The position numbers and the translations under genes were made by a program. A DNA stretch of 64,000 nucleotides from the NCBI RefSeq assembly GCF_054482595.1, contig NZ_CM137008.1. The stretch is one strand, 5' to 3'. This document shows positions 45,010 to 45,456 of this stretch, piece by piece; the first letter of the stretch is position 1, and each line of letters starts with the position of its first letter. A model generated the notes under the pieces. That model saw only the letters and a program-made list of their open reading frames with translations. It made no database searches and was not told the origin of the DNA.

Positions 45010-45456
45010 TTACTGTGCGAACACGCAATTTCGGCCTGATGGGGAGCCGACAATTCTGGACATTTTTTCGCAAATAACAGTTACTTGTTCTCCTTTTTTA
45101 AGAGCAGCAGCTGTTGATTTTTCAGAGTCTTGCATTTCCATTCTTGCTGGCATGAATTCATTTTCAGTTCTGAATTTAATAATTATAGAGTCAGTAAAGT
45201 CCTTATCAATGGATTGTACGATACCTCTAACGGCGATTAATTTACCTTGTAACTGTTCATCGGTAGCGACTTCATTTTCTTCATACTGTTTAAACAGCTG
45301 TCGAGCAGTAGTGTTGTAGATTTCTTTTTGCGGTGCCGCAGCTTCCGTATCGGATGAGTATGAAGAATTAGAGCCTTTATCGTTATTGCCTGCAAAATAT
45401 CCAATAATCACCAACCCGATGAAAATATATAAAATCCATTTTAATAATTTCTTCAT
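45010..45456 (-). CDS. Hypothetical membrane-anchored protein (moron in tail module; possible OB-fold exported protein)
   Basis: 148 aa; N-terminal TM/signal anchor (ILYIFIGLVIIGYFAG), then Ser-rich linker and soluble domain; opposite strand to all flanking tail genes; AT-rich. Confidence 0.6.
   Translation of the reverse strand: MKKLLKWILYIFIGLVIIGYFAGNNDKGSNSSYSSDTEAAAPQKEIYNTTARQLFKQYEENEVATDEQLQGKLIAVRGIVQSIDKDFTDSIIIKFRTENEFMPARMEMQDSEKSTAAALKKGEQVTVICEKMSRIVGSPSGRNCVFAQ

What the first reader, a model, noticed from the sequence alone, without database searches (positions are those of the whole stretch)
45010..45456. Antisense moron inside the tail gene cluster encoding a membrane-anchored exported protein
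A 148-aa gene on the minus strand interrupts an otherwise co-directional tail operon between the tape measure and DNA-circulation genes. It is AT-rich, and has an N-terminal membrane anchor followed by a Ser-rich linker and a soluble domain. Small envelope proteins at this position in other phages (Cor, Llp-type) block receptors for superinfection exclusion.
Basis: inference. Interest (0 to 1): 0.45.

Follow-up and report, generated by a model that had tools for sequence, protein, structure and literature searches.

The report
Prophage moron encoding Sie2009-like membrane protein
An E. coli prophage carries, backwards inside its tail genes, a small self-contained gene for a membrane-anchored protein that is a distant relative of a dairy-bacterium phage protein known to stop other phages injecting their DNA, so it probably protects the host from further infection, though this has not been tested in E. 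coli.

Summary
Window 45010-45456 (-) is a real 148-aa gene. It has 37% GC against 56% in the surrounding tail genes, and dN/dS is about 0.07. It lies antisense between the tape-measure and DNA-circularization genes of an SfV/SfII-like prophage at thrW, and SfI, SfII and SfV themselves lack it.

The protein has an N-in signal-anchor helix (residues 2-22), a disordered Ser-rich linker (23-44) and an OB-fold (45-148, AF2 pLDDT about 97). It belongs to Pfam PF12869 and PHROG 8545. The lactococcal phage Tuc2009 exclusion protein Sie2009 belongs to both families too and has the same architecture (hhalign probability 97.7%; OB-only HMM E 7e-10).

It is not Cor/Llp-like: it has no lipobox and no similarity to either. 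It is also unrelated to P22 SieA.

In other phages, relatives sit directly downstream of CI-type repressors, which points to expression in the lysogen.

The most likely function is an inner-membrane-tethered periplasmic domain that blocks DNA entry of superinfecting phages after adsorption. This rests on homology and context and has not been tested. The insertion site is a cargo hotspot holding at least four unrelated genes.

I rate it a new Gram-negative member of a known kind, of moderate interest.

The parts
45010..45456 (-). CDS of the 148-aa OB-fold protein (RefSeq WP_024250676.1-like, 'OB-fold protein'); stop codon at 45010-45012
45391..45453 (-). Codons 2-22: N-terminal signal-anchor transmembrane helix (predicted N-in, C-out; no lipobox, no good signal peptidase I site)
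   Evidence: the N-flank has 3 K/R and the C-flank is net acidic
45325..45390 (-). Codons 23-44: disordered Ser/Asn-rich linker, variable in length among homologues
45013..45324 (-). Codons 45-148: OB-fold domain (PF12869 tRNA_anti-like) with the YEENEVATDE and GxVQSIDKDF motifs and the invariant pair C129/C144
45462..45467 (-). Shine-Dalgarno AAGGTG, 5 nt before the ATG, conserved in all three alleles
45516..45524 (-). Candidate extended -10 promoter element TGCCATAAT (TGCTATAAA in the other alleles). It is conserved in position within an otherwise diverged upstream region. This is inferred; no transcription data were examined.
44985..45006 (.). GC-rich hairpin CAGGGAGGG-GCGG-CCCTCCCTG directly after the stop codon. 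It has a T-rich tail on the - strand only, so it is the cassette terminator and is probably read through by late + strand transcription. It is conserved in the other alleles.
44978..45562 (.). Whole inserted cassette, from the tape-measure stop codon to the point where homology with cargo-free phages resumes
43145..44977 (+). Left flank: tail tape measure protein gene (610 aa)
45567..46895 (+). Right flank: DNA circularization (Mu gp43-like) gene, with the conserved start at 45567

Best explanation
The gene is a lysogenic-conversion cassette (a moron) of an SfV-like E. coli prophage. It is transcribed on its own, against the direction of the late tail operon, and makes a bitopic inner-membrane protein. 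The N-terminus is in the cytoplasm, there is one transmembrane helix, and a flexible tether of about 22 residues holds an acidic, probably disulfide-bonded OB-fold domain in the periplasm. It belongs to the same family as lactococcal Sie2009. The most likely action is therefore superinfection exclusion after adsorption: the periplasmic OB-fold binds either a tail-tip, tape-measure or ejection component of an incoming phage, or the inner-membrane or periplasmic factor that the phage needs, and so prevents DNA from crossing the inner membrane.

Shown here: gene reality, insertion status, domain family, architecture, homology to Sie2009, and the association of relatives with repressor operons.

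Inferred: topology, disulfide bond, promoter, expression in the lysogen, anti-phage activity and target.
For: Family membership:
- PF12869 at 67 bits; PHROG 8545 'superinfection exclusion Sie-like' at E 7e-49 over the full length.
- Tuc2009 Sie2009 is in the same PHROG (E 2e-79) and the same Pfam family (43 bits).
- BLASTP E 5e-6 within the OB region; hhalign probability 97.7%, E 1.8e-12 over 128 columns.
- The family HMM hits Sie2009 at E 2e-16, and an OB-only HMM hits it at E 7e-10.
- Both proteins share the same order of basic N-terminus, transmembrane helix, Ser/Thr/Gly linker and OB-fold.
- Sie2009 is a membrane-associated protein described as one that prevents DNA injection (PMC7693887, PMC10883804).

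Extracytoplasmic domain:
- The positive-inside charge distribution fits N-in, C-out.
- There are exactly two Cys, both invariant, in 40 of 41 Gram-negative homologues, and none in Gram-positive Sie2009.
- Relatives carry a cleavable signal peptide (Bordetella phage), or a lipoprotein label (3F1Z), or a cytoplasmic-type zinc ribbon on the other side of the helix (P0080, P0081).
- The C-terminal OB-fold of the architecturally similar TcdC was shown experimentally to be extracellular (bioRxiv 10.1101/872283; link to PF12869 in PMC3575817).

Lysogen expression (contextual):
- The gene is antisense, with its own Shine-Dalgarno sequence, a conserved extended -10-like element and a hairpin terminator.
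- In 8 of 29 diverse viral loci the homologue lies directly downstream of, and co-oriented with, a CI-type repressor.
- The P2-like Burkholderia phage Carl1 has the order repressor, gene 38, homologue, terminator.

Selection: dN/dS about 0.07.
Against: - There is no experimental data for any Gram-negative member. No paper in the library links PF12869 to exclusion outside Gram-positives.
- PADLOC has no match.
- Identity to Sie2009 is low (28% in the hhalign alignment; 34% over the 47-residue BLASTP segment), and the envelope is different, so function may not have been conserved.
- Sie2009's own molecular mechanism is unknown.
- Some carriers hold decayed copies: a 5' deletion in E. coli 042 and IS1 insertions in CX08 and EBJ001. 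Selection is therefore not universal.
- Close homologues in Pantoea sit in loci without recognisable phage genes, although related viral contigs show the same gene pair next to a CI repressor.
- The Klebsiella phage relative has two hydrophobic segments, which makes its topology ambiguous.
- The promoter call rests only on a consensus match; the stricter scan found none upstream of the gene.
Confidence: 0.5

Rival explanations
1. A lysogenic-conversion envelope factor unrelated to phage exclusion. The periplasmic OB-fold would bind a host or environmental ligand (oligosaccharide, peptidoglycan, or a toxin such as a colicin or contact-dependent-inhibition effector) and improve host fitness or resistance to something other than phages.
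For: - OB-folds bind sugars and proteins as well as nucleic acids (general knowledge; PMC3575817 discussion).
- The domain is acidic, pI 5.2.
- Pantoea homologues lie in a variable chromosomal island beside a WapI-type immunity gene and IraP.
- Other morons in this prophage, such as iss/bor, serve host fitness.
- The chromosomal Klebsiella relative 3F1Z has no known phage role.
Against: - The only functionally characterised close architectural relative, Sie2009, is an anti-phage protein (PMC7693887).
- The family recurs next to phage repressors.
- The gene is restricted to one slot of one prophage type in E. coli.
Confidence: 0.25
2. An abortive-infection protein of the AbiP/PdpSau type. It would be membrane-anchored with the OB-fold in the cytoplasm, binding phage nucleic acid and triggering membrane depolarisation or blocking replication.
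For: - PdpSau and AbiP are prophage- or plasmid-encoded proteins with an N-terminal transmembrane helix and an OB-fold that cause abortive infection (PMC10127798).
- The TcdC OB-fold binds G-quadruplex DNA in vitro (PMC3575817).
- The structural neighbours include anticodon-binding and RPA-type OB-folds.
Against: - Charge distribution predicts N-in, C-out.
- The invariant Cys pair is confined to Gram-negative members.
- The OB domain is acidic, pI 5.2.
- Relatives have cleavable signal peptides or lipoprotein labels.
- The TcdC OB-fold is extracellular (10.1101/872283).
- No PADLOC abortive-infection model matches.
Confidence: 0.08
3. Cor/Llp-type exclusion. The protein would reach the outer membrane or its receptors and inactivate a receptor such as FhuA, LamB or OmpC, so that phages fail to adsorb or to trigger.
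For: - It is a small exported envelope protein encoded within tail genes. Cor and Llp are also encoded beside tail or receptor-binding genes.
- A 22-residue tether plus the domain might span part of the periplasm (inference).
Against: - There is no lipobox and no N-terminal Cys, so no route to the outer membrane.
- The family HMM scores negative bits against N15 Cor and T5 Llp.
- No Cor-type family appears in the Pfam or PHROG hits.
- It is homologous instead to a protein that blocks DNA injection (PMC10883804).
Confidence: 0.05
4. A phage lytic-cycle accessory protein, for example one aiding the phage's own tail assembly, injection or lysis, and not a lysogen-expressed gene.
For: It lies inside the tail operon next to the tape measure.
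Against: - It is antisense to the late operon and has its own signals.
- The fully functional phages SfI, SfII and SfV lack it.
- The slot holds unrelated alternative cargos.
- In other phages the homologue sits in repressor operons.
Confidence: 0.04

Closest known systems
Sie2009 (orf2) of Lactococcus phage Tuc2009 and its LC3 homologue; PHROG 8545; Pfam PF12869
   Same: - Same Pfam and PHROG families, with profile-level homology that includes the OB-fold alone.
- Same architecture: basic N-terminus, one transmembrane helix, low-complexity linker, C-terminal OB-fold.
- Both are prophage-borne, of similar size (148 against 173 aa), and accessory.
   Different: - Only 28% identity in the hhalign alignment (34% over the 47-residue BLASTP segment).
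- The host is Gram-negative, so the domain sits in the periplasm and carries a conserved Cys pair that Sie2009 lacks.
- It lies antisense in the tail operon and not between repressor and integrase, although other Gram-negative relatives do follow the repressor.
- Its activity is untested.
HK97 gp15 moron (YebO-like inner-membrane exclusion protein)
   Same: It is a self-contained moron inserted beside the tape-measure gene of an E. coli phage. [quoted passage not shown]
   Different: - There is no detected sequence relationship: no YebO family appears among the Pfam hits at E up to 1.
- gp15 has no OB-fold.
- gp15 lies between the tail chaperone and the tape measure and, as far as I recall (not checked here), is co-directional with them. 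This gene is antisense.
Clostridioides difficile TcdC and its homologues in Lactobacillus and Leuconostoc phages
   Same: - N-terminal membrane anchor with a C-terminal OB-fold related to PF12869 (PMC3575817).
- The OB-fold was shown to be extracellular (10.1101/872283).
- The phage homologues lie between cI and int.
   Different: - TcdC has a coiled-coil dimerisation helix where this protein has a disordered linker.
- TcdC's proposed role is toxin regulation.
- I did not compare it directly with this protein.
P22 SieA
   Same: It is a prophage-expressed inner-membrane protein, encoded antisense immediately after a late virion gene (ejection protein gene 16), and it blocks DNA injection (PMC10883804).
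   Different: It is unrelated in sequence. It is predicted to have three transmembrane domains and has no OB-fold (PMC10883804).
Cor (phi80/N15) and Llp (T5)
   Same: They are small envelope exclusion proteins encoded among tail genes.
   Different: They are 77-78-aa lipoproteins with a lipobox; the records annotate them as receptor (FhuA) inactivators (PMC3594210). There is no similarity to this protein.
PDB 3F1Z, Klebsiella pneumoniae 'putative nucleic acid-binding lipoprotein' (structural-genomics entry)
   Same: It is the best solved structural match (Foldseek E 3e-5, TM-score 0.63 normalised to the target).
   Different: It shares 17-19% identity, is labelled a lipoprotein and not a signal-anchored protein, and has no known function.

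Membership tests
Sie2009 family (PF12869 / PHROG 8545) | PF12869 domain above Pfam's gathering score | tested here: met
   67.2 bits against a cut-off of 23.5, residues 2-130. Sie2009 itself scores 43.3 bits.
Sie2009 family (PF12869 / PHROG 8545) | Full-length match to the PHROG that contains Sie2009 | tested here: met
   phrog_8545: E 6.8e-49 over residues 1-146. Sie2009 scores E 1.7e-79 on the same PHROG.
Sie2009 family (PF12869 / PHROG 8545) | Direct homology to Sie2009 that does not depend on the transmembrane or low-complexity region | tested here: met
   BLASTP E 5e-6 in the OB region; hhalign probability 97.7%; OB-only HMM E 7e-10, 27.6 bits, against a six-sequence database.
Sie2009 family (PF12869 / PHROG 8545) | Small protein with a hydrophobic N-terminus, a linker and a C-terminal domain outside the cytoplasm | tested here: met
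   Architecture shown. The outside location is predicted from charge bias and the Cys pair and has not been measured.
Sie2009 family (PF12869 / PHROG 8545) | Encoded in the lysogeny module and expressed from the prophage | tested here: inconclusive
   Here the gene is antisense in the tail operon with its own putative signals. Relatives follow CI-type repressors. No expression data were examined.
Sie2009 family (PF12869 / PHROG 8545) | Blocks phage DNA injection without reducing adsorption | not testable with these tools
   Needs plating, adsorption and DNA-entry assays.
Cor / Llp receptor-inactivating lipoproteins | Lipoprotein signal peptide with a lipobox Cys | tested here: not met
   No Cys before residue 129 and no lipobox. 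Cor has LLSGC and Llp has LLSAC.
Cor / Llp receptor-inactivating lipoproteins | Sequence similarity to Cor or Llp | tested here: not met
   The family HMM scores -2.4 bits against N15 Cor and -1.7 bits against T5 Llp.
Cor / Llp receptor-inactivating lipoproteins | Inactivates FhuA or another outer-membrane receptor | not testable with these tools
   Needs adsorption and receptor-function assays.
P22 SieA family | Sequence membership (PHROG 7745) and a polytopic inner-membrane protein | tested here: not met
   BLASTP E 40. SieA is in phrog_7745 only. The family HMM scores -0.6 bits. This protein has a single transmembrane helix.
HK97 gp15 / YebO family | YebO-like sequence | tested here: not met
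   No YebO family among the Pfam hits at E up to 1. gp15 itself was not fetched.
Moron (as defined for HK97; PMC3594210) | Present in one phage and absent from close relatives at the same junction | tested here: met
   SfI, SfII and SfV span 1175 bp where the window spans 1701 bp. 72 of 1092 E. coli genomes that match the flanking query hold the full insert.
Moron (as defined for HK97; PMC3594210) | Base composition different from the neighbours | tested here: met
   37.1% against 55.7% GC.
Moron (as defined for HK97; PMC3594210) | Own terminator | tested here: met
   A 9-bp GC-rich hairpin at 44985-45006 with a T-rich tail on the - strand, conserved in diverged alleles. This is pattern-level evidence only.
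Moron (as defined for HK97; PMC3594210) | Own promoter active in the lysogen | tested here: inconclusive
   The strict scan found none upstream of the gene. A relaxed scan finds TGCCATAAT at 45516-45524, and it is positionally conserved in the other alleles.
AbiP / PdpSau membrane-anchored OB-fold abortive-infection proteins | Cytoplasmic, basic, nucleic-acid-binding OB-fold | tested here: not met
   Predicted N-in, C-out; domain pI 5.2; invariant Cys pair. This is prediction only. No direct sequence comparison was made.

The most novel reading that the evidence does not exclude
This would be the first Gram-negative representative of the Sie2009/TcdC family of membrane-tethered extracytoplasmic OB-folds. 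It would act in the periplasm to stop genome delivery by tailed phages, possibly including contractile-tailed phages like its own carrier. Its gene would occupy a dedicated exchangeable slot between the tape-measure and DNA-circularization genes, where SfV-like prophages swap mainly envelope-targeted cargo: at least four unrelated genes, three of them with export signals. Because E. coli is tractable, it could finally reveal what Sie2009-type proteins bind.
Probability: 0.4. Interest if true: 0.5.

Novelty: new member of a known kind. Interest (0 to 1): 0.36.

Why it matters
Sie2009-type exclusion has been known in dairy lactococci since 2002, but its target and mechanism remain unknown (PMC7693887, PMC10883804).

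The family (PF12869) is annotated in Gram-negatives only as 'OB-fold protein' or 'tRNA_anti-like'. It is absent from PADLOC and from a recent review of superinfection exclusion.

An E. coli member offers a tractable system for finding the ligand of the extracytoplasmic OB-fold, with genetics, escape mutants and a well-described periplasm and tail-tip biology. It would also add a class of injection blockers to the E. coli prophage repertoire. The gene is present in about 1.4% of complete E. coli genomes.

The family link bears on C. difficile TcdC as well, whose extracellular OB-fold has no accepted function.

Finally, the hotspot between the tape-measure and DNA-circularization genes is a practical place to look for further envelope-acting prophage cargo.

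Tried and rejected
- Cor/Llp-type receptor blocker: rejected. I fetched N15 Cor and T5 Llp; both have lipoboxes and neither shows similarity.
- P22 SieA homology: rejected.
- Known defence system: PADLOC gave no hit. NCBIfam gave only a sub-threshold S1 hit.
- Literature on PF12869, tRNA_anti-like, or OB-fold combined with superinfection exclusion returned only the TcdC and PdpSau papers. Nothing concerned a Gram-negative member.
- A regulator-binding inverted repeat upstream of the gene: only short AT-rich repeats of no significance were found.
- The strict sigma-70 scan found no promoter upstream of the gene. Its one strong hit (TTGATA-16-TATAAT, 45209-45182) lies inside the coding sequence, and I take it as chance in AT-rich DNA.
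- Fold searches gave only uncharacterised PF12869 proteins and generic anticodon-binding or RPA OB-folds, so no ligand could be inferred.
- I could not check the C129-C144 distance, because model coordinates are not exposed.
- The idea that homologues are purely chromosomal in Pantoea was weakened. Related viral contigs carry the same gene pair directly after a CI repressor.

Full report
1. The observation

Window 45010-45456 (-) holds an ATG-initiated ORF of 148 aa. Every other long ORF from 39656 to 50564 runs on the + strand.

The window matches E. coli chromosomes at 99.9% identity. There the region is an SfV/SfI/SfII-like prophage integrated next to tRNA-Thr and proA. [quoted passage not shown] In a relative they carry PF10145 and PF07157.

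The gene has 37.1% GC against 55.7% for the tail region. Equally AT-rich stretches in the prophage are confined to other accessory islands.

The ORF is a real gene. It scores 67 bits on Pfam PF12869 and has 89 homologues. Between diverged alleles, synonymous sites are saturated (pS 0.73-0.83) while pN is 0.15-0.24, giving dN/dS of about 0.07.

2. Anatomy of the insertion

Phages SfI, SfII and SfV, and about half of a 60-record sample spread across the matching E. coli genomes, span 1175 bp where the window spans 1701 bp. The full insert is present in 72 of the 1092 genomes that match the flanking query.

Alignment of the junctions shows that homology stops at the tape-measure stop codon. It resumes about 7 nt before ATG 45567, which is therefore the true start of the DNA-circularization gene. 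The longer ORF from 45519 is an artefact of the AT-rich cargo.

Cargo-free and + strand-cargo variants keep a hairpin with a T-run (CCCnCTTCGGTGGG-TTTTTTAT) just before that ATG. In the window it is replaced.

The cassette has these parts:
- a GC-rich hairpin at 44985-45006, with a T-rich tail only on the - strand;
- the coding sequence;
- a Shine-Dalgarno sequence, AAGGTG, at 45462-45467;
- an extended -10-like element, TGCCATAAT, at 45516-45524.

Two further alleles (about 72% nucleotide identity, about 70% amino-acid identity) occupy the same slot with the same junctions. They conserve the Shine-Dalgarno sequence, the hairpin and the TGCTATAA(A/T) element within an otherwise diverged leader. 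I take this as the best available, though indirect, evidence for a promoter.

3. The slot is a cargo hotspot

Between the same two genes, other SfV-like prophages carry different cargo on the + strand:
- a 170-aa protein with an N-terminal signal-like sequence (phrog_8976; phage SKA5);
- a 225-aa protein with an LLLGGC lipobox-like motif (phrog_1353);
- a 125-aa bacterial PH-domain protein (PF08000).

In the same 60-record sample, roughly 47% were empty, 20% held the 170-aa gene, 7-8% the OB-fold gene, 5% the 225-aa gene and 2% the PH-domain gene.

The OB-fold gene itself occurs in 78 of 5426 complete E. coli genomes. Some copies are decayed: a 5' deletion removes the promoter, Shine-Dalgarno sequence and transmembrane helix in E. 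coli 042 and others, and IS1 insertions interrupt it in CX08 and EBJ001.

4. The protein

AlphaFold2, run with a 41-sequence alignment, gives mean pLDDT 88. It predicts helix 2-22 and a disordered segment around 23-44 (pLDDT below 50 at 26-37). Residues 45-148 form a domain with pLDDT of about 97 and canonical OB topology: three strands, a helix at 110-117 and two further strands, preceded by two short helices.

The best solved match is 3F1Z, an uncharacterised Klebsiella 'putative nucleic acid-binding lipoprotein'. After it come generic anticodon-binding and RPA OB-folds. The best viral matches are uncharacterised 'tRNA_anti-like' or 'host cell surface-exposed lipoprotein' proteins.

The N-terminus, MKKLLKW, carries three positive charges, and the 15 residues after the helix are net acidic. 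There is no lipobox and no small-x-small cleavage site, so I predict an uncleaved N-in, C-out signal anchor.

The OB domain is acidic, pI 5.2. In 40 of 41 homologues it contains exactly two cysteines, both invariant: C129 and C144. Gram-positive Sie2009 has none. This pattern fits a periplasmic disulfide bond, which is my inference.

Relatives support an extracytoplasmic domain:
- a Bordetella phage member has a cleavable signal peptide;
- members P0080 and P0081 place a zinc ribbon on the opposite side of the single helix;
- the OB-fold of TcdC, which has been linked to PF12869 (PMC3575817), was shown to be extracellular (bioRxiv 10.1101/872283).

One caveat applies. The Klebsiella phage relative has two hydrophobic segments, so its topology is ambiguous.

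5. Family

PHROG 8545, 'superinfection exclusion Sie-like', matches the protein end to end at E 7e-49. I traced that label to Lactococcus phage Tuc2009 orf2 (Sie2009). Its record carries the same product name. It scores E 2e-79 on PHROG 8545 and 43 bits on PF12869.

Direct tests of the relationship:
- BLASTP E 5e-6 across the first OB-fold helix and strand;
- hhalign probability 97.7%, E 1.8e-12 over 128 columns;
- family HMM E 2e-16;
- an HMM of the OB domain alone, E 7e-10.

The two proteins share the whole layout. [quoted passage not shown] It prevents DNA injection by heterologous phages by an unknown mechanism (PMC7693887, PMC10883804).

By contrast, P22 SieA, N15 Cor and T5 Llp show no similarity. 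Cor and Llp are 77-78-aa lipoproteins.

6. Context of relatives

A scan of viral contigs returned 80 loci, which reduce to 32 non-redundant ones.

I scanned 92 neighbouring proteins from 29 of these loci (two genes on each side where available). The commonest families were HTH_3, Phage_CI_repr with Phage_CI_C, YdaS and Peptidase_S24. Tail hub and tape-measure families came next.

In L042, L047, L048 and L054 (CI_repr), L057 (HTH_3), and L058, L060 and L083 (HTH plus S24), the gene directly upstream and co-oriented is a CI-type repressor. Of the four CI_repr loci only L042 was scanned individually. L047, L048 and L054 are assigned from their matching gene layout and from the count of four members for Phage_CI_repr and Phage_CI_C.

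The P2-like Burkholderia phage Carl1 has the order repressor, gene 38, homologue, terminator. A Klebsiella phage carries a zinc-ribbon-fused member antisense inside its baseplate genes. Pantoea 'chromosomal' copies share their downstream neighbour with viral contigs that still have the repressor, so they may be prophage remnants.

This recurrent placement in the repressor operon is what one expects of a function needed in the lysogen.

7. Mechanism

The best-supported model is as follows. The cassette is transcribed independently of the late operon, in the lysogen. The protein inserts into the inner membrane and presents the OB-fold in the periplasm on a flexible tether. There it interferes with genome delivery by superinfecting phages after adsorption.

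It could do this by binding a tail-tip, tape-measure or ejection component, or by binding the host factor that triggers or conducts DNA entry. These are the two hypotheses put forward for lactococcal Sie proteins (PMC7693887). They parallel HK97 gp15, a moron beside the tape-measure gene whose specificity depends on the incoming tail (PMC3594210).

I put this at about 0.5. Family membership and architecture are firm. Activity, topology, promoter and target are inferred.

The rivals are:
- an envelope factor unrelated to phages (0.25);
- an AbiP/PdpSau-like abortive-infection protein with a cytoplasmic OB-fold (0.08; PMC10127798), disfavoured by the predicted topology, the acidic pI and the Cys pair;
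- Cor/Llp-type receptor masking (0.05);
- a lytic-cycle accessory (0.04).

8. Novelty

The kind is known: prophage morons that encode membrane proteins blocking DNA entry, and specifically the Sie2009 family.

What appears to be new is recognising an enterobacterial, periplasmic branch of that family. No paper in the searchable library connects PF12869 with exclusion in Gram-negatives. PADLOC lacks it. RefSeq calls it only 'OB-fold protein'.

I rate it a new member of a known kind, of moderate interest. Its value lies mainly in giving a tractable system for an unsolved mechanism.

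Noticed in passing
window 44978-45566; loci L001 2160-2672, L008 969-1646, L009 934-1311, L010 909-1586: The junction between the tape-measure and DNA-circularization genes of SfV-like prophages is a cargo hotspot. It is either empty with a hairpin terminator, or holds the antisense OB-fold cassette (three alleles), or holds one of three + strand cargos: a 170-aa secreted-type protein (phrog_8976), a 225-aa probable lipoprotein (phrog_1353) or a 125-aa bacterial PH-domain protein (PF08000). Three of the four cargo types have export signals.
   Followed up: partly
window 45519-45566: The mechanical ORF start of the DNA-circularization gene (45519) lies inside the AT-rich cargo. 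The conserved start shared with all other variants, and used by RefSeq, is ATG 45567. SfII's record also annotates an extended start that overlaps its terminator hairpin.
   Followed up: yes
L018 2501-2915 (E. coli 042); L019 2491-3637 (CX08); L011 1748-2811 (EBJ001): Decayed copies of the gene. A deletion of about 135 bp removes the promoter region, Shine-Dalgarno sequence, start codon and transmembrane helix in E. coli 042 and several other genomes. IS1 insertions truncate the 5' end in CX08 and EBJ001. RefSeq still annotates these as 'OB-fold protein' or 'OB-fold putative lipoprotein'.
   Followed up: partly
window 28108-30310 (-): Two antisense, very AT-rich genes (29-39% GC) lie between the Q antiterminator and the holin. 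One is a 344-aa NA37/YejK-like nucleoid-associated protein (PF04245, E 8e-69); the other is a 395-aa protein with no Pfam match. The near-identical reference strain EC01307 carries three different hypothetical genes here, so this is another variable accessory slot and possibly a defence locus.
   Followed up: partly
L003 7497-7790, 27772-28839, 29390-30163, 30802-31278 (about window 31896-32189, 52171-53238, 53789-54562, 55201-55677 if collinear): Other accessory genes of the prophage in the near-identical reference strain: an antisense iss/bor lipoprotein after the Rz gene, an acyltransferase (O-antigen modification type), a GIY-YIG LEM-3-like protein and a DUF6650 protein at the right end. 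They coincide with the other low-GC islands of the window.
   Followed up: no
L014 3833-4624 (+) (Bordetella phage vB_BaM-IFTN4, OM293953): A 263-aa ORF with a signal peptide and a PF12869 domain (33.8 bits) lies downstream of the repressor, on the strand opposite to the annotated CDS vBBaMIFTN4_49. The deposited annotation probably has the wrong strand.
   Followed up: partly
L013 3632-4300 (Klebsiella phage ST405-OXA48phi1.2): A 222-aa relative fused to an N-terminal zinc ribbon, with two hydrophobic segments, sits antisense inside the baseplate gene cluster. It is annotated as 'hydrogenase maduration factor', which is evidently a mis-annotation arising from the zinc-ribbon hit.
   Followed up: partly
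L004-L006 8001-8480 (Pantoea): Pantoea homologues (about 65% identity) lie beside copCD-yebY, in an island with a WapI-type immunity gene and IraP and no recognisable phage genes. Related viral contigs (L042, L047, L048) have the same gene pair directly after a CI repressor, which suggests a prophage remnant.
   Followed up: partly
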